From a bacterium (lineage in GTDB: Bacteria > Patescibacteriota > UBA1384 > 2-12-FULL-50-11), in contig JAJTYJ010000001.1 of the NCBI GenBank assembly GCA_021463485.1, positions 139,932-203,931 on the forward strand: 64,000 bases of DNA. The letters are read 5' to 3'. A program made the position numbers and the translations under genes. Under the pieces are notes generated by a model. It saw only the letters and a program-made list of their open reading frames with translations. It did not search any database and was not told where the DNA came from. Each line of letters begins with the position of its first letter. The first letter of the stretch is position 1. This document shows positions 13,594 to 21,617 of the stretch, piece after piece.

Positions 13594-14190
13594 ATGAAGA
13601 CTCTGAAAATGCTTCTCTTCGTCATTGTGCTCGTCGTCGGCTCAGCTTCTGCGTTCGCGCAGAGCGTCGACGAACTCGGCGGAGCGAACCCGCCGGTCAC
13701 GAGCACCGACCCAGTCGGCCAAGACCCCACGAACTTGCCGAGTCATCAACCTCCGCCCTGGGAAACTCGGGAGGGAGTTGAGGTAGCGGCTCGGAATTAC
13801 TTCGAGGCAAAAAACCAGTACAACGAGTGTCGGCATCGCGGCGACAAGCCGGGCATGGCTCGCGCCGCGAAGCGGATGCGCACTCACTCGAACGCCCTGG
13901 CTGCCTTTAAAAAGCAGCAAGCGGCGCGCGACAAGGCGCAAGACGCTAGGCTCGATGCTCACAGCAACCTCGTGTGGAAGCACGAGTCGCAGTTGAACGG
14001 CAAAGGCGGTCTTAACGACCGACAAGGCAAAACCGAAAAGCGCGTAAAAACGCTTGAGGAAGAGATGGACGCCGTGACGCCGGCAATCGCCGGCATCAAC
14101 GGAAAGTTCGACGGACTCACTTGGTGGGTTCTGATTCTCACTCTCATCGTTCTGATCGGCTTTGGCCGACGCTACTGGATCCACCGCTAA
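13594..14190 (+). CDS. Secreted protein with a C-terminal TM anchor (198 aa) in a GC-rich island
   Basis: SD AAGGAG; signal peptide MKTLKMLLFVIVLVVGSASAFA; C-terminal TM WWVLILTLIVLIGF; ~60% GC. Confidence 0.55.
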   Translation: MKTLKMLLFVIVLVVGSASAFAQSVDELGGANPPVTSTDPVGQDPTNLPSHQPPPWETREGVEVAARNYFEAKNQYNECRHRGDKPGMARAAKRMRTHSNALAAFKKQQAARDKAQDARLDAHSNLVWKHESQLNGKGGLNDRQGKTEKRVKTLEEEMDAVTPAIAGINGKFDGLTWWVLILTLIVLIGFGRRYWIHR

Positions 14191-14207
14191 GGAGTCGGGA
14201 AGAAACC

Positions 14208-14855
14208 ATGAACATCAGTGACCTCATGCTGACCACGCCCCTCGGGGCGATCCTCATCATCGTCTTGCTCGTCCTGGCCGCCATCGCGGCTTGGGGGGCA
14301 TACGCAAACCGTCCTACCGCCAGGCTGGAGACGGCACCGCCGACTCCGCCTCAGCGACCGACCCCAGCTCCGGAGCCTCCGAAGAAGGAGGAGCCGAAGC
14401 CAATCGTCGAGCAACCCCTCCCCAAAAAGGAGTCGGAACCTTGCACTTGCAAGGAAGAGGAACCGTGCGCCAAGGAGCGCGAGGAGATTAGGCGCCTAGA
14501 AGGCGAGCTGGAGACGGCGAGAGCCGACAGCAACACGAAGGAGGGTGAGAACAACGAACTCACCAAACGTCTCGCCAACGCCAACCGGCGACTCGAGGAG
14601 TCGCAGACGAATGCGAAGCTGGCCAAGCCGCAGAAGGTGACGGCCAGTAACATCCTTCCGTTGCTCGATGATCTCGGCAACATCAACTTCAGCGCTGCAA
14701 AGCAGCTTCGGGCGGAGGCCAACAAGCCTCAGCCTGAGTACGCACGGATCGAGAAGCGACTCGGAGTTTTCGCGGACTACTGCGAGCAGCGCGGCTTCGA
14801 ACGCCCCGACCCCGGCACTCTACTGCAGCTTCTGCAGGAAGCGCTCAAGCAGTAG
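14208..14855 (+). CDS. N-terminally membrane-anchored Pro-rich / coiled-coil protein (215 aa) in a GC-rich island
   Basis: SD AAGGAG 9 nt upstream; TM helix, then a PTPPQRPTPAPEPP linker and a coiled-coil region. Confidence 0.55.
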   Translation: MNISDLMLTTPLGAILIIVLLVLAAIAAWGAYANRPTARLETAPPTPPQRPTPAPEPPKKEEPKPIVEQPLPKKESEPCTCKEEEPCAKEREEIRRLEGELETARADSNTKEGENNELTKRLANANRRLEESQTNAKLAKPQKVTASNILPLLDDLGNINFSAAKQLRAEANKPQPEYARIEKRLGVFADYCEQRGFERPDPGTLLQLLQEALKQ

Positions 14856-14930
14856 CGCAACAATGAATCCACAACGGACCGTTCTCAATGGCACCAGCCA
14901 ACGAGACGGTCCTCTTTTTTTATCTAATTT

Positions 14931-17780
14931 TTATTTGATTAATTTAATTAGCTCCCGGAGCGAGATAGTATGATCGTACTGTTGGTCACCTTCATCACGC
15001 ATTAAAGTAATATTAAAGTCTATGGTCTCCGGTTCTCCAACGCCTTCTGCCATTAGTATTGAAAGCGGAGTCTCCGATAGTTTTTGCGAGCGAGGGATAT
15101 TTAATGCCTCTTTAATCTCTGCTGCTTGTTCGCTGTTATCCGCTGCTTCAGAAAAATTAATTGACTGGCCCTCGGCGAAATCGTCTGGGGTTTTACCCGC
15201 CTCTGTAATTAAATCGTACAACTCCTTGTCGGGCTCAGACTCTGACTCCGGTTCTGGCTCGGGAGCTTGGGTTAGCTGCTCTACTTGTTTTTCAGGTTGT
15301 TGAGTATGATTTGGATTTTCTTCTTCGGTTGGGGACCGATCTTGTTCTGTAACTTCCTCCGATTGAGATGATTCTAGATTTCGCCCAACTACCATTGATT
15401 CGATCGTTGAATACACAAATGGTTGAGCAATTTTGCCAACCTTAGTAACGATCGTTTGACGCTTTGAATCGACTCGATCTACGGTGATTTTTACCAAACC
15501 ATTTTCTTTCTCACCGCTTCGCAGAACAGTAGTGCCGATTCGGCTTGAATCACCCTCAGGAACTCTCAAGAAAAGTACGTCACCTTGGGCTATATCTTCA
15601 AACTTTACGCTCGCTTCGTTCTCCTCAACGCTCTTATTTGCTTCTACCCTTACAGTATTAATATTAGGCTGGCCGTTAACAGTGATGGGCACCGGTTCTT
15701 CCTTTTGAAGCTGTTTCTTGGCGTTAGCATCTTCAAACCGGTCAACAATCTCGTTAAGCAGAGCTGTCACTTCTTTGCTTGATGGGTTTGTTATAACTTT
15801 CCAACCATCTTTCTCCCGTGAATCAGTTCTACCAAGAACAATCTTAGGCGGGTTCGGCAACGGCCGCCCTTCGCGATCGTACTCTGGCTCCGGATATTCT
15901 AACTTAATAGATTGGGAGAAATTGTCTTTGTTTTTCAAGAAGATCGACGTGACCGAACGACCGTCTGGTGCTGGAGTCTTGCTCATTGTGATCCCAAATG
16001 TGTTTAACGTATCTTCGTCTAATTCAGAAGCTCCAAACGAATACAGCTTCTCAACATCTTCAACTATCGACGCAGCGTCACTACTTTCTGGTTCAACTTT
16101 CTTATCGCCTTTTTCGTTATAAGCCTCCAGGAAAGCCTTGCTAATATCCTCTTCAACACCTTCAAGGATTTCTTGATGACCAGTAGTGTCTTTTTCGGCC
16201 CACCGAACCGGTAAGTTCTTGCCATTTTCACCAGCTGGTAATTCTTTTTGGTCACGGGCGTTAAGAGCTGCTTGCTCGCCATCCGTTTTATCAACGCCCG
16301 ATTCTTCTGGTTTTTTGCGCATCGGTAACGCTTTAGCTTCGCCGCCCGGTAATGCTAGCCGATTATCATCAGATTTTGATTCAGTTGCCTTGGGTTCTCC
16401 GCCACTCTTTTTAACAGATGAAAAGAACTCAGCCAAGAACTGCAGCTGTGCCCCAGCTATTGGCACAGCTTCTTTCCAGAACGATCCGGCTAACGCAGCA
16501 GCGCGCTCAGCAAGTTCGGGATTATTTTGCACTATCAAGTTGCGGAAGATACTATCGTTGAGACCTGATAATACGTGAACTTCGCTACCATTATTTAACA
16601 CGGCTGTTGTAACTTCGGCAGCCTTATTGACGCCAAACTCAGCCGCCGCAGTTCCACCGTTGTAGTTAAAGACAAAACCTCCTGTTTTTTCGAGTTGTTG
16701 GGCAAACCCTGGATCGGCGCTAGCGATATCACTCGGGTTAATTTTTTCGACAAAATGTTGTATTCCATCTTTATCAAAATCTGCCCATACCCCACGAACT
16801 TTATCAATATCGGCATTAAGCAAGCTCTCCTGAATTGCATATCCTCCCAGCCCACCTAATATTGAACCACCTGCTGCAATAATGTCAGCTACCTTCTCTC
16901 GTTTTTTTTCAAGACGCATCTTGTCATAGCCAAGTCTTTGCGTTTCAGCTAAACCACTGAGTTCCTTCTCCACTTTATTTTCCGCATAAAGTGCCTGGTA
17001 GCTTTCATAATGAGTGAGGTCAATAAAGTATTGATGGAGTTCTGCAAGTTGTTTGTCGATTTCCACCCTTCGTTCTTCGTCGGCCTCCTCGCGCTCCATG
17101 ACTAGATCCACAGCTTGGTCTTGAAGCCTGGCTGCCTCGGCAAATACCTTAGAGCGAGATTCGATAACTTTGGTTCTACCCTCACGTTCATCCTTCTTAA
17201 AATGTCGGTAAAGCTCGAAGGCCCCTCGCGCCGCAGCACCGCCAGCCAACGCCGCTAGAAAGACAGGCGAGCCGACTGTCCCACCGAGTATTGCGGCAAT
17301 ACCTGCACCGATACCACCAGCAACACCGGTTTTTACACCAATTTTGCCGAGACGAAGTGCGCCATCACGACCTAATAATCGAAATGCTTTTTTAAGTTCT
17401 TTGGCTTGCTCTTCAGGCTTTGCATCAGCAACTCGTTCAGAGATTTTTAAGTCAGAGTATTCACCTGCAAATACAGCTTTGGTTTGCTTAATAAATCGGC
17501 TAAGTACATTACCCTCACTAATTTTATAACGCTCCGCGATCTCTTCGATACTTCGCTGTCGGGCCTGCTCAACGTAATTAATAGCGAATTTCTCGCGTTC
17601 CTGTTTATTATCGACAACCGTATCGGCGTTCTCGGGTGAAATCAGTGGAGCAGGCTCTTCCGGGGTTGGTTCGCTTTCTGGTTTTTCGGCTACTTCCTCA
17701 GTGGTATCTTTCCACTCGTCGGGGCTTAATTCATAAACTTCCGGATCTTGGCCAGCATCAGCGCCCCTCAGCTCCGACAT
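14931..17780 (-). CDS. Large acidic hypothetical protein (949 aa) with Gly/Ala-rich hydrophobic segments
   Basis: Long open frame translationally coupled to the upstream 111-aa gene; glycine-zipper-like segments GVAGGIGAGIAAILGG and IIAAGGSILGGLGG; no NTP-binding motif or known domain recognised. Confidence 0.7.
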   Translation of the reverse strand: MSELRGADAGQDPEVYELSPDEWKDTTEEVAEKPESEPTPEEPAPLISPENADTVVDNKQEREKFAINYVEQARQRSIEEIAERYKISEGNVLSRFIKQTKAVFAGEYSDLKISERVADAKPEEQAKELKKAFRLLGRDGALRLGKIGVKTGVAGGIGAGIAAILGGTVGSPVFLAALAGGAAARGAFELYRHFKKDEREGRTKVIESRSKVFAEAARLQDQAVDLVMEREEADEERRVEIDKQLAELHQYFIDLTHYESYQALYAENKVEKELSGLAETQRLGYDKMRLEKKREKVADIIAAGGSILGGLGGYAIQESLLNADIDKVRGVWADFDKDGIQHFVEKINPSDIASADPGFAQQLEKTGGFVFNYNGGTAAAEFGVNKAAEVTTAVLNNGSEVHVLSGLNDSIFRNLIVQNNPELAERAAALAGSFWKEAVPIAGAQLQFLAEFFSSVKKSGGEPKATESKSDDNRLALPGGEAKALPMRKKPEESGVDKTDGEQAALNARDQKELPAGENGKNLPVRWAEKDTTGHQEILEGVEEDISKAFLEAYNEKGDKKVEPESSDAASIVEDVEKLYSFGASELDEDTLNTFGITMSKTPAPDGRSVTSIFLKNKDNFSQSIKLEYPEPEYDREGRPLPNPPKIVLGRTDSREKDGWKVITNPSSKEVTALLNEIVDRFEDANAKKQLQKEEPVPITVNGQPNINTVRVEANKSVEENEASVKFEDIAQGDVLFLRVPEGDSSRIGTTVLRSGEKENGLVKITVDRVDSKRQTIVTKVGKIAQPFVYSTIESMVVGRNLESSQSEEVTEQDRSPTEEENPNHTQQPEKQVEQLTQAPEPEPESESEPDKELYDLITEAGKTPDDFAEGQSINFSEAADNSEQAAEIKEALNIPRSQKLSETPLSILMAEGVGEPETIDFNITLMRDEGDQQYDHTISLRELIKLIK

Positions 17781-17781
17781 T

Positions 17782-18117
17782 TTAGTTACTCTGGTGCTGA
17801 CCGCGCAGCGTCTCAGAGATAGAAGCCATCTCTACCTTATACGCAAGTGATTCTGTCGTGGCAATCTGATCAATATCAATACCGTTTTCTTCAAAGAACG
17901 CCTGAACAGCCTTGGCATCACCAGCATTAATCAGTTCTTTTAATTTATCTAGACCTTGTTCATCGAGCTGGTCGGCGACTCGCAGCATTACTCGATTCAT
18001 CACCGTCTCATACGCTTTCTGAAAAACGTCTGCCTTTTCTTCCTCAGACAGTCCCTCAAGTTCAGAAACCTCAAACAAGCTCTTCTGTAATACGTCTTCT
18101 AGCCCAATATTACTCAT
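17782..18117 (-). CDS. Small acidic hypothetical protein (111 aa)
   Basis: 36 nt downstream of rpoD with no intervening terminator; its stop lies 1 nt from the ATG of the 949-aa gene. Confidence 0.6.
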   Translation of the reverse strand: MSNIGLEDVLQKSLFEVSELEGLSEEEKADVFQKAYETVMNRVMLRVADQLDEQGLDKLKELINAGDAKAVQAFFEENGIDIDQIATTESLAYKVEMASISETLRGQHQSN

Positions 18118-18153
18118 ACTACGAGCGTAGCAAATTCGAATAACATTACAACG

Positions 18154-19275
18154 CTAGTTTAAGTAGTCTTTGAGCTTTGAGGCTTCTTCGTGTTTTTTGA
18201 GTTTTTGTAATGCTTTAGCTTCTATCTGTCGGATACGCTCGCGAGTAACACCGAACTCTTTTCCGACTTCTTCCAACGTATGGGTACGAGCTGAGCCTTC
18301 TTCAGCATCTAATCCGAAACGCATTCGTAAGATTTTTTGTTCGCGTGGCGTTAAAATCGAGAGCGACTCCTCGACGTGACCCTTCATCAACTGATAAATC
18401 GCTTGCTCTTCCGGTGAGATCGTATTTTTATCTTCAATAAACTCGCCTAGGCTCGAGTCGCCTTCGTCGCCAACAGGGGATTCAAGCGAAACTGTTTCTT
18501 GTGAGATTTTCATAATGTGTTCGAGCTTATCGAGCTCGACGCCGAGTTTTTTGGCTAACTCTTCGTGGGTTGGCTCGCGACCGAGCTCCTGTTGAAGTTC
18601 GCGTTGCGTACGCATATATCGGTTGATGGTCTCGACCATATGAACTGGGATACGAATAGTGCGAGCTTGGTCGGCGATCGCTCGGGTAATTGCTTGGCGG
18701 ATCCACCACGTGGCGTACGTTGAGAACTTAAAGCCTTTTTTGTAATCGAACTTCTCTACCGCCCGATGCAAACCAAGATTTCCTTCTTGGATTAAATCCA
18801 AAAGCGACAAACCGCGACCGATGTATTTTTTGGCAATCGAGACGACTAATCGAAGGTTAGCTTCGGCTAGTTTTCGTTTGGCCGCCTTATCACCACGCTC
18901 AATCCGTTTGGCTAATCGAACCTCTTCGTCACCAGTTAAGAGCGGGTACTGACCGATCTCACGAAGATACATACGGACCGAGTCTTCGCTTAGTCCGGTA
19001 ATATCGTCGTCTTTGACTACTTTTTTCTTGCCGGTTTCTATTTCGGGAATGTCGAGTAAGGGTTTTGGTTCGCGTAACTCAACCCCGATCGTATCTAGGT
19101 AGCGCATAAACTCATCAACTACCTCTAAATCATTTTCCGGCTCGGTGAAGCTCTGCAAGATTTCTTTATATGTTACGAATCCGTGCGCCCGGCCTTTGCG
19201 AATGAGATACATCAGCTCCTCAGGAAAATTAAGACCGACGTCTTGTTTTATTTTTTTCGGCACTGCTTTTGTCAT
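18154..19275 (-). CDS. rpoD: RNA polymerase sigma factor RpoD (sigma-70 family, group 1)
   Basis: Regions 1.2-4 are conserved ([39 protein letters not shown]); its ATG overlaps the dnaG stop. Confidence 0.95.
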
Positions 19276-21023
19276 ACGTTATTCTCCTTAGTCTGTTTTG
19301 ATAGTTCGTTTAATTCGTTCATTAACCGCTTCACTTCTGTTAAATCGCCGGCCTGCTGCGCTCGTTGAATACCACTAGCTAGCGCGGATTTTTGCTGATC
19401 GTATTGTTTTGTTGAGAGTTGAGAAAATTTTTCCTGTAGCAGCTCTTCCGTAAGCGCCGGCGAAAGCTGCTCCCATTGGGAAGAGAGCCAAAATTGCCAC
19501 GAGTCAATCTTCTCACTTATGCGTGGGTCAAGATCGGTTTTCACCTGTGAAGAAAAGCGGGACGGGTTCTTCACCAAAGTTCCATCAGTATACCACTTCT
19601 TGATTGAAGAGGCAATCAGCTCGGCGTCCATGCTCTGCCAAACTACGTCTTCAATTTTTTTAAGATGACGCTTAATCCCAGACGGGTTAGAGAGAAGTAG
19701 TGCAAGTAGCTGCTCCTCATTGGTTAGCGTGGGCGGCTTTTCGACTACTCTTGAGCTGCCAGTGTCTGGAGTTTTTGGTTGGCTCGTTTTTTTTAAGGTT
19801 GTGTATAAGCTTTCCGAGCTAACTTGTAACAGTGAGGCAAGACGCTGAACGTAGTAGTCGAGTCTTGTGGCGTCTGGAACCAGCTGCAGCGTCGGCAAAA
19901 TCATGGAGGTTAATTTCTTTTTGTTCTCGATAAATTGGAGGGAACCAACAGCTCTAACTTTCTGGTTAATAAGCCAATCGACCATTTCTGTAGCGCTTTT
20001 TAGTGTGTCTGCCCACGTCTTCGGCGCCTTTTCAAAGAGCTCGCCGGCATCTTTATACGAACCAAAACTTAACACCCGACCGCTCAGGTCATTCTTGAGT
20101 AGTAATTGAACAACTTTCTCGGTCGTACTGACGCCGGCTGCGTCGCCGTCGAAGCCGAGGACGAAATTTTGAGTGTATTTAGAGAGAATCTGAAGCTGCT
20201 GCTCGGTTACAGCAGTCCCCGAACTGGCAACAACTTCAGTAACACCAGCCTGATGCAGCGCGATAACATCCAGCTGGCCCTCAACTAAAATCACTCGATC
20301 TTCTTTTTTAATACCAGCCTTTGCCAGATGCAGTCCGTATAGAACCCGGCCTTTTGAGAATAATTGAGTTTCAGGAGAGTTGAGATACTTTGGCTGGGCG
20401 TCTCCGAGCGAGCGACCGGTAAAGGCAATAACGTTCCCAAGTACGTCGTAGATTGGGAATATAATTCGATCGAAGAATTTCTCCGGAGAGCCAGCGCGCT
20501 GTAGATCGGCGGCGGTTACCCCTTTGCTAGCCATCAATTTTTGCAACGAGATGCGTTTCGAAGCAAATCCGACACCAAACTCCTTTAACGAATCTGTTGA
20601 AATTTGACGCGACTCTAGATACGCCAAAGCCGCTTTACCTTCTGGTGTCCCAAATAAAACTTTTTGGAATATCGCTGCTGCCAGTTTATTTACTCGATAG
20701 AGCAGCTCCTTGCGACCCTGGCTTTGATGCTCAGCCGTAGTTCGCGGCTGCAACGTAACCCCAGCTTTCTGTGCTAAGAGTCTAAGAACGTCGCCGAACT
20801 CAAGGTGTTCGGCCTCCATTACGAACGTGTAGTGATCGCCGCCCTTACCGCAGCCGAAGCACTTCCAGATCTGTTTTTGCGGGCTAACCATCATCGACGG
20901 CGTTTTCTCCTGATGAAACGGGCAGACGCCTTTGTAGTTAGTACCGGCTTTCTTTAAAACGACGTACTGACTAATCAAATCAACAAGATCCAGCCGTCCC
21001 TTTATTTCCTCAACTTCGTTCAT
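19272..21023 (-). CDS. dnaG: DNA primase DnaG
   Basis: CHC2 zinc finger [13 protein letters not shown]...CFGCG, Toprim domain ([13 protein letters not shown]), C-terminal helicase-interaction region. Confidence 0.95.
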
Positions 21024-21156: not shown

Positions 21157-21447
21157 TTGCAACTCAGTAACTGTAAGAACGAACGGCAGCTCATGGTAGC
21201 TGCTGCCCAACACATCGGGGCAAACCCGAGAAGTAGGACCATCAATCAGGTCTACCGCGCCGTGCAAAGGTCGGGCCGACTGCTCGACAAACCGCACAAG
21301 ACGCTTCAGCGGATCGACGCGACCCGGGAGGGAATCGCCGAGCTGAAGAAGGACGGTCACGACCATCACATTCCGCGCTACGTCCGACGCGCTCTGGTGG
21401 ACGGGCAGCCCTGCCCCAAGAAGTTCTTGCAATCCGTCGTCGGCTAA
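21157..21447 (+). CDS. Possible small orphan CDS in a GC-rich segment; strand and start are uncertain
   Basis: Open frames on both strands (21157..21447 + with a TTG start, 21103..21432 -); GGAGGG SD-like sequence at 21142; ~60% GC; no homology. Confidence 0.2.
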   Translation: MQLSNCKNERQLMVAAAQHIGANPRSRTINQVYRAVQRSGRLLDKPHKTLQRIDATREGIAELKKDGHDHHIPRYVRRALVDGQPCPKKFLQSVVG

Positions 21448-21527
21448 TTGCCGACCTGCCCACTCGTGCGATGAGTGGGCATATTTTTTTGCATTTTTCA
21501 GGTAAAATTACCAAGAACATAGATTTA

Positions 21528-21617
21528 GGAAGAGTCGCCTAGTGGCCTATGGCGCCGCCTTGGAAAGGCGGTTTATCCGCAAGGGTATCGTGGGTTCGAA
21601 TCCCACCTCTTCCGCCA
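21528..21617 (+). tRNA. tRNA-Ser (anticodon GGA), type II with a long variable arm and encoded CCA
   Basis: Acceptor GGAAGAG/CTCTTCC, D arm, anticodon stem CCGCC/GGCGG with loop TTGGAAA, long variable arm, T arm GTGGGTTCGAATCCCAC, 3' GCCA. Confidence 0.9.

What the first reader, a model, noticed from the sequence alone, without database searches (positions are those of the whole stretch)
14931..21023. dnaG-rpoD macromolecular-synthesis operon extended by two uncharacterised genes (111-aa acidic protein + 949-aa protein)
dnaG and rpoD overlap (ATGA). 36 nt after rpoD, with no hairpin or T-run, a 111-aa acidic protein begins, and its stop lies 1 nt from the ATG of a 949-aa acidic protein. The latter has glycine-zipper-like hydrophobic segments (GVAGGIGAGIAAILGG; IIAAGGSILGGLGG) but no recognisable catalytic motif, signal peptide or known domain. 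Co-transcription with the primary sigma factor and primase is an unusual, potentially informative context (replication or transcription-coupled function, or a membrane-tethering factor). The small-acidic-plus-large pairing resembles chaperone/cargo pairs, though that is speculative.
Basis: partly seen in the sequence, partly recalled or inferred. Interest (0 to 1): 0.55.

Follow-up and report, generated by a model that had tools for sequence, protein, structure and literature searches.

The report
CPR-specific membrane protein plus DUF5663 partner
The two unknown genes after dnaG-rpoD are real, but they look like a separate gene pair with its own promoter (a small DUF5663 protein plus a large membrane protein) that recurs across the ultra-small CPR/Patescibacteria bacteria, and DUF5663 genes are needed for growth in the one cultivated relative tested.

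Summary
The window comes from Patescibacteria bacterium BroJett034.

The "operon extension" reading is weakened:
- The 36-nt rpoD-to-111-aa gap holds TTGTAA-16-TGcTACGCT, ending exactly 6 nt before the ATG.
- This leaderless-promoter geometry occurs at 12 of 56 gene starts in the window (p about 1e-9) and in 7 of 8 orthologous loci.
- Two relatives have an intrinsic terminator just upstream of the pair.

The conserved unit is the pair, not its link to rpoD:
- The 111-aa protein belongs to Pfam DUF5663.
- A large Gly-zipper-hairpin membrane protein lies next to DUF5663 in 20 of 20 informative loci (Berkelbacteria-like, Saccharimonadales and unnamed lineages).
- rpoD linkage is confined to one clade.

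The 949-aa protein belongs to a rare family (29 representatives among 1.84 billion proteins) with no Pfam, PDB or fold relative.
- Its conserved 458-aa N-terminal module is a helical bundle, a TM hairpin, a coiled coil, TM3, an Asp/His-rich loop domain and a marginal TM4.
- Its tail is variable.

Published Tn-seq in Southlakia epibionticum calls a DUF5663 gene and its large neighbour essential.

Function is unknown. My best guess is a membrane-anchored complex with DUF5663 as a dedicated partner.

The parts
19272..21023 (-). dnaG (DNA primase, 583 aa)
   Evidence: Pfam Zn_ribbon_DnaG, DNAG_N, Toprim and DnaB_bind. A GGTATACT -10-like box lies about 37-44 nt upstream of the ATG.
18154..19275 (-). 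rpoD (primary sigma factor, 373 aa). It overlaps the dnaG stop by 4 nt (ATGA) and has an AAGGAG Shine-Dalgarno 8 nt upstream.
   Evidence: Sigma-70 regions 1.1, 1.2, 2, 3 and 4. Best matches are NCBIfam RpoD equivalog models at E = 2e-146, 489 bits, below the 555-bit curated cut-off. Upstream sequence.
18146..18151 (-). -35-like hexamer TTGTAA, 16 nt upstream of the -10-like hexamer
   Evidence: Read from the sequence. Also present in L001.
18124..18132 (-). Extended -10-like element TGcTACGCT, ending 6 nt before the ATG of the 111-aa gene. Predicted promoter of a leaderless mRNA.
   Evidence: The TGnTAnnnT-N6-ATG arrangement is kept in 7 of 8 orthologous loci. TAnnnT sits at offset -12 in 12 of 56 window gene starts, against 2.0% of all ATGs (binomial p = 1.2e-9). 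This is the published leaderless signature (PMC3160421).
17782..18117 (-). 111-aa acidic, probably helical protein of the DUF5663 family, probably cytoplasmic
   Evidence: Pfam PF18908 at E = 3e-4. Orthologues carry PF18908. Alignments A3 and A5.
14931..17780 (-). 949-aa membrane protein of an uncatalogued family. Its start is 1 nt after the DUF5663 stop (translational coupling).
   Evidence: No Pfam, NCBIfam, PADLOC or PHROGs hit. 29 representatives at E <= 1e-3 among 1.84 billion proteins.
17370..17636 (-). aa 49-137: conserved cytoplasmic helical bundle (motif R-Y-G...G...A-x-x-A-G-E)
   Evidence: AF2 block-mean pLDDT 88-95 for aa 71-130. Conserved Y85, G90, G106 and E107.
17199..17369 (-). 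aa 138-194: glycine-zipper transmembrane hairpin with a conserved Pro172 turn and basic flanks
   Evidence: Hydrophobicity. Flank net charge +4 and +2 across 27 sequences. Helices 138-164 and 172-194. K150, P172, R185 and E189 are conserved.
16893..17195 (-). aa 196-296: cytoplasmic antiparallel coiled-coil hairpin
   Evidence: AF2 helices 196-232 and 235-256 with block-mean pLDDT 94-96 for aa 201-250.
16821..16892 (-). aa 297-320: third hydrophobic Gly-rich segment (TM3, in to out)
16521..16799 (-). aa 328-420: small beta-rich loop domain, predicted outside the cell. Conserved D334-x-D336-x-D338-G...H342 and H402 (candidate metal site).
   Evidence: AF2 strands 331-403 with block-mean pLDDT 86-92 at aa 341-370. 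Conservation counts: D 21/27, D 19/27, D or N 21/27, H342 26/27, H402 24/27. Net acidic.
16404..16520 (-). aa 421-459: long helix with a marginally hydrophobic fourth segment (TM4?). This decides whether the tail is inside or outside.
   Evidence: Mean Kyte-Doolittle hydropathy 1.12 and ambiguous flank charge. Low pLDDT.
14934..16403 (-). aa 460-949: variable acidic tail with disordered linkers and two confidently folded alpha/beta domains (aa 566-693 and 852-949)
   Evidence: AF2 full-length model, block-mean pLDDT 73-86 in the two domains. Only the last ~100 aa are weakly conserved, with P0004 (E = 8e-4) and P0022 (E = 3e-5). The rest aligns only to the 75%-identical P0002.
14876..14912 (.). 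Hairpin between the convergent genes, with an A-run on one side and a T-run on the other. Probably a bidirectional terminator.
   Evidence: -25.9 kcal/mol, z = -4.7, matched by 0 of 200 shuffles. Sequence.

Best explanation
dnaG-rpoD is an ordinary primase/sigma operon. The two genes behind it form a separate two-gene module that is the real conserved unit. It consists of a small acidic, probably helical cytoplasmic DUF5663 protein and a large membrane protein.

Expression. In this organism the module is most likely expressed mainly from its own promoter in the 36-nt gap, as a leaderless mRNA that starts at the A of the DUF5663 ATG. The large gene is then translated by termination-reinitiation, because its ATG lies 1 nt after the upstream stop.

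Anatomy of the large protein (inferred):
- Its N-terminus is cytoplasmic.
- A glycine-zipper helical hairpin dips into or through the membrane and returns to the cytoplasm.
- A roughly 100-aa coiled coil follows.
- TM3 then carries a small Asp/His-rich, probably cation-binding domain to the outside.
- A marginal TM4 would bring the long, lineage-variable acidic tail back inside.

Mechanism (inferred). DUF5663 binds the conserved cytoplasmic part of the large protein as a dedicated adaptor or chaperone-like partner. The complex would be a membrane-anchored scaffold with a housekeeping role specific to CPR cell biology. The position next to rpoD is inherited synteny in one clade, not a functional coupling to transcription or replication.
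For: Shown:
- ORFs and junctions are as described.
- The DUF5663 gene and a large Gly-hairpin protein are adjacent in 12 of 12 loci reached through the large protein (window, L001-L005, L007-L011, L021, L022).
- They are also adjacent in 8 of 8 informative loci reached through DUF5663 (L012-L017, L019, L020).
- In the loci reached through the large protein, gaps are 1-13 nt or overlaps (L010: 159 nt); L013 also overlaps (ATGA).
- The promoter-like element sits at a fixed 6 nt from the ATG in 7 of 8 orthologous loci.
- TAnnnT at -12 marks 12 of 56 gene starts, all with an upstream gap of at least 18 nt, against a 2% background (p = 1.2e-9). This matches the published leaderless signature (PMC3160421; PMC12340547 and PMC3898074).
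- Intrinsic terminators lie directly upstream of the pair in L004 and L002.
- rpoD has its own Shine-Dalgarno, while the DUF5663 gene has none.
- The topology is supported by hydrophobicity and the positive-inside pattern across 27 sequences, and by an AF2 model of the N-module (pLDDT 73, pTM 0.56).
- The conserved Asp/His cluster is documented.

From the literature (PMC10633639, Tables S1 and S2):
- In Southlakia epibionticum the syntenic locus is S1-IF2-SEML1_0161 (767 aa, unannotated)-SEML1_0162/0163 (both DUF5663)-fmt, the same order as my L019.
- Tn-seq calls it essential: 0161 and 0162 are GD/ES/ES across T0/T1/T2, and 0163 is NE/GD/GD.
- The DUF5663 genes are flagged there as a Patescibacteria-enriched core family.
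- The AF model of 0163 resembles the trigger-factor C-terminal and LTXXQ helical folds (TM-score 0.87, DPAM 0.86).
Against: - No transcript data exist. The promoter is a sequence inference, and the window has no terminator after rpoD, so read-through co-transcription remains possible.
- Physical interaction of the two proteins is inferred only from adjacency and coupling. I could not run a complex prediction.
- The large partners in Saccharimonadales-type loci are not demonstrably homologous to the window's protein (hhalign probability 3%, hairpin only). The Tn-seq result therefore transfers strictly only through DUF5663.
- TM4 is marginal, so the position of the tail (inside or outside) is undecided.
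- The hydrophobic Gly-rich segments could be re-entrant or amphipathic rather than membrane-spanning.
- Fold searches gave only generic helical matches, so "scaffold" is a default reading, not a positive identification.
Confidence: 0.45

Rival explanations
1. One reading: a true functional extension of the dnaG-rpoD operon. The pair is co-transcribed with primase and sigma and acts on transcription or replication, for example as a membrane tether or anti-sigma-like regulator of RpoD or of the second sigma factor found in relatives.
For: - The gene order is conserved in 9 loci down to E = 1.7e-40 relatives.
- No terminator follows rpoD in the window.
- In L002, L004 and L005 an extra sigma-70 (regions 2-4) gene sits directly upstream of the pair.
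- There are weak Sigma70_r4-like hits in both proteins (E = 0.099 and 0.067).
Against: - The pair has its own conserved leaderless-type promoter.
- Intrinsic terminators separate the upstream sigma gene from the pair in L002 and L004.
- The pair occurs without any sigma gene nearby in L009, L010, L012-L017 and L019-L022.
- In S. epibionticum, dnaG-rpoD is followed by a convergent gene.
- No anti-sigma domain is detected, and the r4-like hits are far below threshold.
Confidence: 0.12
2. A surface or host-interaction protein. TM4 is not a real transmembrane helix, so the whole variable acidic C-terminal half (aa 460-949) is displayed outside the cell of an episymbiont. DUF5663 would be its cytoplasmic export or insertion chaperone (the chaperone/cargo reading).
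For: - TM4 is only marginally hydrophobic and its flanks are not clearly basic.
- The tail evolves fast and is modular, as expected of host-interaction proteins.
- A published fold hint for DUF5663 points to chaperone-like helical cradles.
- Many essential S. epibionticum genes are envelope or host-interface functions (PMC10633639).
Against: - Some relatives carry enzyme domains in the tail: PF00149 Metallophos in P0025 and P0028, whose motifs look PPP-type by eye, and a DHH-like motif seen by eye in P0035. From general knowledge these are usually cytoplasmic.
- The hydrophobic TM4 segment is clearer in distant relatives.
- No secretion genes lie nearby.
- No sorting or cell-wall anchoring motif was seen.
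Confidence: 0.15
3. A glycine-zipper oligomer that forms a channel or shapes the membrane. The hairpins pack through GxxxG-type contacts, as in Mic10 or other Gly-zipper pores. The outside Asp/His site would gate or bind cations, and DUF5663 would regulate the assembly from the cytoplasm.
For: - The Gly-zipper pattern and the Pro172 turn are conserved.
- A DxDxDG-like loop and two near-invariant histidines lie in the outside domain.
- Hairpin flanks are basic and the hairpin is followed by a coiled coil.
Against: - No Pfam Gly-zipper, channel or transporter family is hit.
- The hairpin has no conserved polar or charged pore-lining residues.
- The huge variable tails are atypical of channels.
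Confidence: 0.1
4. The small gene is a spurious ORF call, or the pair is a pair of fast-evolving ORFans with no shared function.
For: Low-complexity acidic composition. The large family is rare.
Against: - Protein-level conservation extends down to 21-31% identity with conserved motifs and start positions.
- The small protein belongs to a Pfam family.
- Relatives show an essentiality phenotype.
Confidence: 0.02

Closest known systems
Pfam PF18908 (DUF5663); Patescibacteria-enriched core family; SEML1_0162 and SEML1_0163 of Southlakia epibionticum (PMC10633639)
   Same: The 111-aa protein aligns over its full length with PF18908-annotated proteins from Berkelbacteria, Saccharimonadales, Parcubacteria and unclassified Patescibacteria MAGs. 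It shares the G-L-E-x-L-S-x-E-E-K motif, the size and the acidity. It also lies next to a large unannotated Gly-hairpin protein, as in L019, which is syntenic with the SEML1_0161-0163 locus; I never saw the SEML1_0161 sequence.
   Different: - The window protein scores 2 bits below the Pfam cut-off.
- Here the DUF5663 gene is single and upstream of the large gene. In Saccharimonadales it is duplicated and downstream.
- The family has no known function.
Macromolecular-synthesis operon (rpsU-dnaG-rpoD of E. coli; the dnaG-sigA operon of Bacillus), from general knowledge
   Same: dnaG and rpoD are adjacent, overlapping and co-oriented. rpoD has an internal Shine-Dalgarno.
   Different: No rpsU lies upstream. 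The downstream pair has its own promoter-like element and is found elsewhere without dnaG-rpoD.
Small helical accessory protein plus membrane sensor pairs (CpxP-CpxA, ZraP-ZraS; the LTXXQ/Spy family) and trigger-factor C-terminal-like chaperone arms
   Same: - A small all-helical protein is genetically paired with a membrane protein.
- The conserved L-S-x-E-E-K motif looks like LTXXQ.
- The published AF model of a DUF5663 member matched LTXXQ and trigger-factor C-terminal folds (TM-score 0.85-0.87, DPAM 0.864).
   Different: - DUF5663 has no signal peptide, so it would act in the cytoplasm, not the periplasm.
- No sequence-level hit to LTXXQ or Trigger_C at E <= 1.
- The large partner has no kinase domain.
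- I did not test the fold here.
Membrane-anchored anti-sigma factors encoded next to their sigma gene
   Same: A membrane protein with a cytoplasmic N-terminal helical domain is encoded directly after one or two sigma genes in this clade.
   Different: No anti-sigma domain is detected. The protein has a hairpin plus further hydrophobic segments rather than a single pass. The linkage to sigma is lost in most lineages, and terminators intervene in relatives.
Glycine-zipper hairpin membrane proteins (for example Mic10 of MICOS, or the Gly-zipper 2TM families), from general knowledge
   Same: Two adjacent Gly/Ala-rich helices joined by a short Pro-containing turn and flanked by basic residues.
   Different: No detectable homology. 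The protein is far larger and has a coiled coil, an extra domain and a long tail.

Membership tests
Pfam PF18908 (DUF5663), 111-aa protein | Score at or above the Pfam gathering cut-off (23.7 bits) | tested here: not met
   21.7 bits, E = 3.1e-4, covering aa 20-78 (profile positions 7-65 of 84). This is 2 bits short of the cut-off.
Pfam PF18908 (DUF5663), 111-aa protein | Full-length homology to proteins that do pass the Pfam model | tested here: met
   Orthologues at 65-95% identity carry PF18908. A profile built from the family retrieves 31 proteins, most of them PF18908-annotated and some named "DUF5663 domain-containing protein".
dnaG-rpoD (macromolecular-synthesis) operon extended to four genes | No promoter between rpoD and the next gene | tested here: not met
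   TTGTAA-16-TGcTACGCT-6-ATG lies in the gap. It is conserved in 7 of 8 orthologous loci and matches a pattern seen at 12 of 56 gene starts. This is sequence inference only.
dnaG-rpoD (macromolecular-synthesis) operon extended to four genes | No terminator between rpoD and the next gene | tested here: inconclusive
   - The window has none by the scan.
- It has only a weak hairpin that looks unconserved in L001 by eye.
- Relatives L004 and L002 have clear intrinsic terminators at this junction.
dnaG-rpoD (macromolecular-synthesis) operon extended to four genes | Linkage conserved wherever the pair occurs | tested here: not met
   The pair is linked to rpoD in 9 loci of the close clade only. It is unlinked in L009, L010, L012-L017 and L019-L022 and in S. 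epibionticum.
dnaG-rpoD (macromolecular-synthesis) operon extended to four genes | Co-transcription shown by RNA data | not testable with these tools
   No transcriptome data are available.
Membrane-bound anti-sigma factor | Recognisable anti-sigma domain at the N-terminus | tested here: not met
   No Pfam or NCBIfam hit in the window protein or in 30 family members.
Membrane-bound anti-sigma factor | Consistent adjacency to a cognate sigma gene | tested here: not met
LTXXQ/Spy/CpxP-like or trigger-factor C-terminal-like helical chaperone (DUF5663) | Sequence match to the family models | tested here: not met
   These families are not among the Pfam hits at E <= 1. The PDB sequence search found nothing significant.
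LTXXQ/Spy/CpxP-like or trigger-factor C-terminal-like helical chaperone (DUF5663) | Fold similarity | not tested
There is only a published lead for SEML1_0163 (TM-score 0.87, DPAM 0.864).
EF-hand / DxDxDG calcium-binding loop (loop domain, aa 334-345) | D-x-D-x-D-G with an acidic residue at position 12 | tested here: inconclusive
   - The window has DFDKDGIQHFVE.
- Across the family, position 1 is D in 21/27 and position 3 is D in 19/27.
- Position 5 is D or N in 21/27, and the G is present in 11/27.
- H342 is present in 26/27.
- The motif sits in beta strands, not a helix-loop-helix.
- Pfam reports no EF-hand.
Glycine-zipper / 2TM hairpin families | Match to Pfam Gly-zipper models | tested here: not met
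   No hit at E <= 1 and none in 30 relatives.
Anti-phage defence or phage protein | Match to PADLOC or PHROGs models | tested here: not met
   Only chance-level hits (E >= 0.006).

The most novel reading that the evidence does not exclude
DUF5663 plus a large glycine-zipper-hairpin membrane protein is a previously undescribed machine. It would be present across much of the CPR/Patescibacteria and essential. Its membrane-embedded core would carry an outside cation-binding domain, a dedicated cytoplasmic partner, and lineage-specific effector tails (for example phosphatase or DHH domains). It would perform a core envelope, division or host-interface function that other bacteria achieve with different proteins.
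Probability: 0.3. Interest if true: 0.75.

Novelty: new variant of a known kind. Interest (0 to 1): 0.5.

Why it matters
CPR/Patescibacteria make up a large share of bacterial diversity. Most of their lineage-specific essential genes have no assigned function (PMC6744442; PMC10633639).

What this analysis adds:
- It ties a catalogued but unexplained family (DUF5663, Patescibacteria-enriched, essential in S. epibionticum Tn-seq) to a constant genomic partner. That partner is a large membrane protein with a glycine-zipper hairpin that standard family clustering misses because it diverges so fast.
- That gives a concrete two-protein hypothesis. It can be tested in the genetically tractable Saccharibacteria by depletion, localisation, pull-down and topology mapping.
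- It removes a misleading lead: the neighbourhood of rpoD and dnaG is synteny, not evidence of a role in transcription or replication.
- As a by-product, it indicates that this Berkelbacteria-like organism starts about one third of its transcription units as leaderless mRNAs. This matters for gene calling and operon prediction in such genomes.

Tried and rejected
1. Pfam, NCBIfam, PADLOC and PHROGs on both proteins, and Pfam on 30 family members, gave nothing for the large protein except Metallophos in two relatives.
2. PDB sequence searches with profiles A2 and A3 gave only chance hits: calmodulin at E = 0.05 on a non-loop region, and ExbD at E = 0.8.
3. The full-length AF2 model built from 8 sequences was poor (pLDDT 44.5). 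Its Foldseek search of the PDB gave a best E of 0.16.
5. I considered the weak Sigma70_r4 hit at aa 74-92 as an HTH or sigma mimic. I rejected it because E = 0.099 and the stretch overlaps a clade-specific insertion in the family alignment.
6. I considered and rejected the anti-sigma and defence-system readings (see the membership tests).
7. jackhmmer with the tail segments within the family shows that only P0002 shares them.
8. Profile-profile comparison of the window family with the Saccharimonadales-type large proteins gave probability 3%. I therefore do not claim orthology with SEML1_0161.
9. The genome-contig scan found only the source genome and one Berkelbacteria MAG. I therefore could not make a radiation-wide count.
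10. The hairpin in the rpoD-DUF5663 gap (z = -3.0) looks unconserved in L001 by eye (no fold or alignment run), so I judged it unlikely to be a terminator.
11. Full-text literature searches for DUF5663 and for BroJett found nothing.

Full report
**1. The observation**

The four ORFs exist as described, all on the minus strand:
- dnaG, 19272-21023, 583 aa
- rpoD, 18154-19275, 373 aa
- a 111-aa ORF, 17782-18117
- a 949-aa ORF, 14931-17780

Pfam confirms a complete primase and a sigma-70 with regions 1.1 to 4. rpoD's best NCBIfam matches are RpoD equivalog models, below their curated cut-offs.

The junctions are as stated:
- dnaG and rpoD overlap by ATGA.
- 36 nt separate rpoD from the 111-aa gene.
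- 1 nt separates the 111-aa stop from the 949-aa ATG.

Both unknown products are acidic, with net charge -13 and -61. The two quoted glycine-rich stretches are the most hydrophobic parts of the large protein.

The window comes from contig BOKZ01000001.1 of "Patescibacteria group bacterium BroJett034". The nearest named relative is a Candidatus Berkelbacteria MAG.

**2. The small protein is a DUF5663 member**

- It hits Pfam PF18908 at E = 3e-4, 2 bits below the curated cut-off.
- Its orthologues at 65-95% identity are PF18908-positive.
- A family profile retrieves proteins named "DUF5663 domain-containing protein" from Saccharimonadales, Parcubacteria and unclassified Patescibacteria.
- The family shares the motif G-L-E-x-L-S-x-E-E-K and is small and acidic.

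**3. The large protein belongs to a rare, uncatalogued family**

An exhaustive profile search of 1.84 billion cluster representatives found 29 proteins at E <= 1e-3. Twelve of these are at E <= 1e-30.

Pfam scanning of 30 members found only a Metallophos domain in the tails of two. NCBIfam, PADLOC, PHROGs and PDB sequence searches found nothing.

The conserved unit is the N-terminal 458 aa, and the C-terminal half varies in length and content.

An AF2 model of the N-module from 27 sequences reached pLDDT 73 and pTM 0.56. It shows:
- a confident helical bundle (aa 49-132)
- a helical hairpin (138-164 and 172-194)
- an antiparallel coiled coil (196-256)
- a long helix that contains the third hydrophobic segment (276-327)
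- a small beta-rich domain (331-405)
- a final long helix (421-459)

Across the family the charge pattern runs as follows:

| Segment | Net charge |
|---|---|
| Before the hairpin | +4 |
| After the hairpin | +2 |
| Before TM3 | +1.3 |
| After TM3 | -1.7 |
| Loop domain | -3 |

This supports an in-in hairpin, with TM3 crossing outward and the loop domain outside. The fourth segment is marginal, so the side on which the tail lies is undecided.

Residues conserved family-wide include K150, P172, R185, E189, E198 and E295. They also include a D334-x-D336-x-D338-G...H342 cluster together with H402 in the loop domain. I read that cluster as a candidate cation site, which is an inference.

The full-length model also shows two confidently folded alpha/beta domains in the tail, at aa 566-693 and 852-949. 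The last of these is weakly conserved at the extreme C-terminus of P0004 and P0022.

**4. The conserved unit is the pair**

In every locus reached through the large protein, a DUF5663 gene lies immediately upstream of it. These loci are the window, L001-L005, L007-L011, L021 and L022. The gap is 1-13 nt or an overlap, except 159 nt in L010.

In loci reached through distant DUF5663 proteins, the DUF5663 gene again abuts a large unannotated protein. That protein lies downstream in L012 and L013 and upstream in L014-L017, L019 and L020. In each case it shows the same hallmark:
- a basic-flanked Gly/Ala-rich hairpin of 40-50 aa
- then a charged, probably helical stretch
- then a second Gly-rich hydrophobic segment

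Homology of these distant large partners to the window's protein is significant for L012 (E = 1e-19) and marginal for L016. It is not demonstrable for the Saccharimonadales type. For those loci I claim shared architecture and a shared partner, not orthology.

**5. The link to rpoD is clade-specific, and the pair probably has its own promoter**

The order dnaG-rpoD-(DUF5663)-(large) holds in 9 loci of the close clade, including a relative at E = 1.7e-40. In L002, L004 and L005 a second sigma-70 gene is inserted before the pair.

Elsewhere the pair follows rplJ-(rplL)-tgt (L009, L021), secDF (by eye, L013) or infB (L019), or lies in other contexts with no sigma gene nearby.

The 36-nt gap of the window reads TTGTAA-16 nt-TGcTACGCT-6 nt-ATG. 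The TGnTAnnnT-N6-ATG arrangement is retained in 7 of 8 orthologous loci although the rest of the gap diverges.

In the window, TAnnnT sits at offset -12 from the start codon in 12 of 56 long-ORF starts. Every other offset has 0-3 cases, and the background over all ATGs is 2.0% (binomial p = 1.2e-9). All 12 genes have an upstream gap of at least 18 nt.

This is the published signature of leaderless genes, a TANNNT box about 12 bp upstream of the start (PMC3160421; see also PMC12340547 and PMC3898074). By contrast:
- rpoD, an internal operon gene, has an AAGGAG Shine-Dalgarno.
- dnaG has a GGTATACT box about 37-44 nt upstream.
- In L004 and L002, canonical intrinsic terminators sit at the stop of the upstream sigma gene, directly before the pair.
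- The consensus promoter scan missed the window element only because TACGCT matches 3 of 6 positions.

I conclude that the pair is most likely an independent leaderless transcription unit. Read-through from rpoD is not excluded, because the window has no terminator there.

A strong hairpin at 14876-14912, flanked by an A-run and a T-run, ends both the pair and the convergent gene.

**6. Outside evidence**

Wang et al. 2023 (PMC10633639) list, for the cultivated Saccharibacterium Southlakia epibionticum, the locus SEML1_0159 (S1), 0160 (IF2), 0161 (767 aa, no annotation), 0162 and 0163 (both PF18908), 0164 (fmt, opposite strand), 0165 (def) and 0166 (priA). My locus L019 has the same order.

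Their Tn-seq results (columns):

| Gene | Calls at T0/T1/T2 | Insertions: input, T0, T1, T2 |
|---|---|---|
| SEML1_0161 | GD/ES/ES | 99, 12, 0, 0 |
| SEML1_0162 | GD/ES/ES | 27, 1, 1, 1 |
| SEML1_0163 | NE/GD/GD | 19, 7, 12, 6 |

SEML1_0161 and 0162 therefore fall in the paper's class II essential group. SEML1_0162 and 0163 are flagged as a Patescibacteria-enriched core family.

In that organism dnaG-rpoD (SEML1_0062 and 0063) is followed by a convergent gene.

Their structure-based table gives the following for SEML1_0163:
- TM-score 0.85 to a DUF2059 protein
- DPAM score 0.864 to an "LTXXQ motif family protein"

This is a lead toward a chaperone or adaptor-like helical fold. I did not test it.

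**7. Interpretation**

My best reading (confidence about 0.45) is a self-contained, translationally coupled two-gene module. It would encode a membrane-anchored protein and its dedicated cytoplasmic DUF5663 partner, with a housekeeping role specific to CPR biology. The position next to rpoD would be inherited synteny.

| | Items |
|---|---|
| Shown | The genes, the pair's conservation, the promoter-like element and its statistics, terminators in relatives, absence of known domains or folds, and the Tn-seq phenotype of DUF5663 genes in a relative |
| Inferred | Leaderless transcription, topology, metal binding, physical interaction, and the scaffold or adaptor function |

Rival readings:
- a genuine transcription- or replication-coupled function (0.12)
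- a surface-displayed host-interaction protein with DUF5663 as export chaperone (0.15)
- a Gly-zipper channel or membrane-shaping oligomer (0.10)
- spurious ORFs (0.02)

**8. Novelty and score**

DUF5663 is catalogued, and its essentiality in one species is tabulated. In the library I searched, the word DUF5663 appears in no main text, although DUF5663 genes are flagged in that paper's supplementary tables.

Four points are new here, as far as I could find:
- the constant pairing with a Gly-hairpin membrane protein
- the definition of the window's large-protein family
- the leaderless promoter
- the demotion of the rpoD context

I rate it a new variant of a known but uncharacterised kind, with interest 0.5. 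The most novel reading still open is an undescribed essential membrane machine found across much of the CPR. I put that at about 0.3 probability, and it would deserve about 0.75 interest if true.

Noticed in passing
window, 12 gene starts: 1516(+), 5905(-), 9001(+), 11027(+), 18117(-), 26992(-), 30568(-), 35610(-), 44005(+), 49596(-), 51879(-), 56203(+): A TAnnnT box, often TGnTAnnnT or GGTATACT, lies exactly 6 nt before the start codon in 12 of 56 long ORFs. That is 12 of the 36 ORFs with an upstream gap of at least 18 nt. About one third of transcription units in this CPR bacterium therefore look leaderless. Other genes (60659, 56113, 19275) have Shine-Dalgarno-like leaders. I found no report of this for CPR.
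   Followed up: partly
L002 6752-7612; L004 2531-3322; L005 476-1330: In the relatives at 42% identity, a second sigma-70 gene (regions 2-4 only, 263-286 aa) is inserted between rpoD and the DUF5663 gene. It is followed by a canonical intrinsic terminator.
   Followed up: partly
P0025, P0028 (C-terminal ~300 aa); P0035 (C-terminal part): Distant members of the large-protein family carry enzyme-like tails. P0025 and P0028 have a Metallophos domain (PF00149) whose motifs (GDTHGD, GDYxDRG, GNH[DE]) look PPP-type by eye. P0035 has a DHH-like "IDHHAAD" motif seen by eye. The conserved membrane module therefore seems to act as a platform for varied effectors.
   Followed up: partly
L021 8492-11386; L009 8964-10541: In the rplJ-tgt-linked clade a further large protein with no Pfam hit (964 and 525 aa) starts at or right after the stop of the Gly-hairpin protein. 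It may be a third component in that lineage.
   Followed up: no
L019 6001-6357 and 6366-6767; L022 4127-4987: DUF5663 is tandemly duplicated in the Saccharimonadales locus, as in S. epibionticum SEML1_0162 and 0163. In L022 it is part of a longer 286-aa protein.
   Followed up: no
N-termini of the large proteins (window 17763-17780 and P0002-P0041): Nearly all family members begin with a similar short motif, M-[PSA]-x-x-[EG]-G (MSELRG, MAVERG, MPETEGG, MPSPEGG, MPGPEG and so on). Such a conserved extreme N-terminus hints at a processing, recognition or modification signal.
   Followed up: no
window 13594-14190(+) and 14121-14855(+): Two ORFs with no Pfam hit converge on the large gene and share its hairpin terminator. 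ORFs of similar size (about 210-230 aa, no Pfam hit) sit in the same position in L001-L004. The block RmuC / class II aminoacyl-tRNA synthetase / Cu-oxidase_4 beyond them is syntenic too.
   Followed up: no
window 21457-21481 and 21528-21617: A tRNA-Ser(GGA) lies upstream of dnaG on the opposite strand. Next to it is a strong terminator-like hairpin (11 pairs plus a T-run) that follows a 96-aa plus-strand ORF (21157-21447) overlapping minus-strand ORF calls. Which strand is coding there is unclear.
   Followed up: no
window 17782-18117, aa 23-28: The most conserved DUF5663 motif (L-S-x-E-E-K, within G-L-E-x-L-S-x-E-E-K) looks like the LTXXQ motif of Spy/CpxP-type helical chaperones. This fits the published DPAM hit for SEML1_0163, but no HMM-level match exists.
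   Followed up: partly
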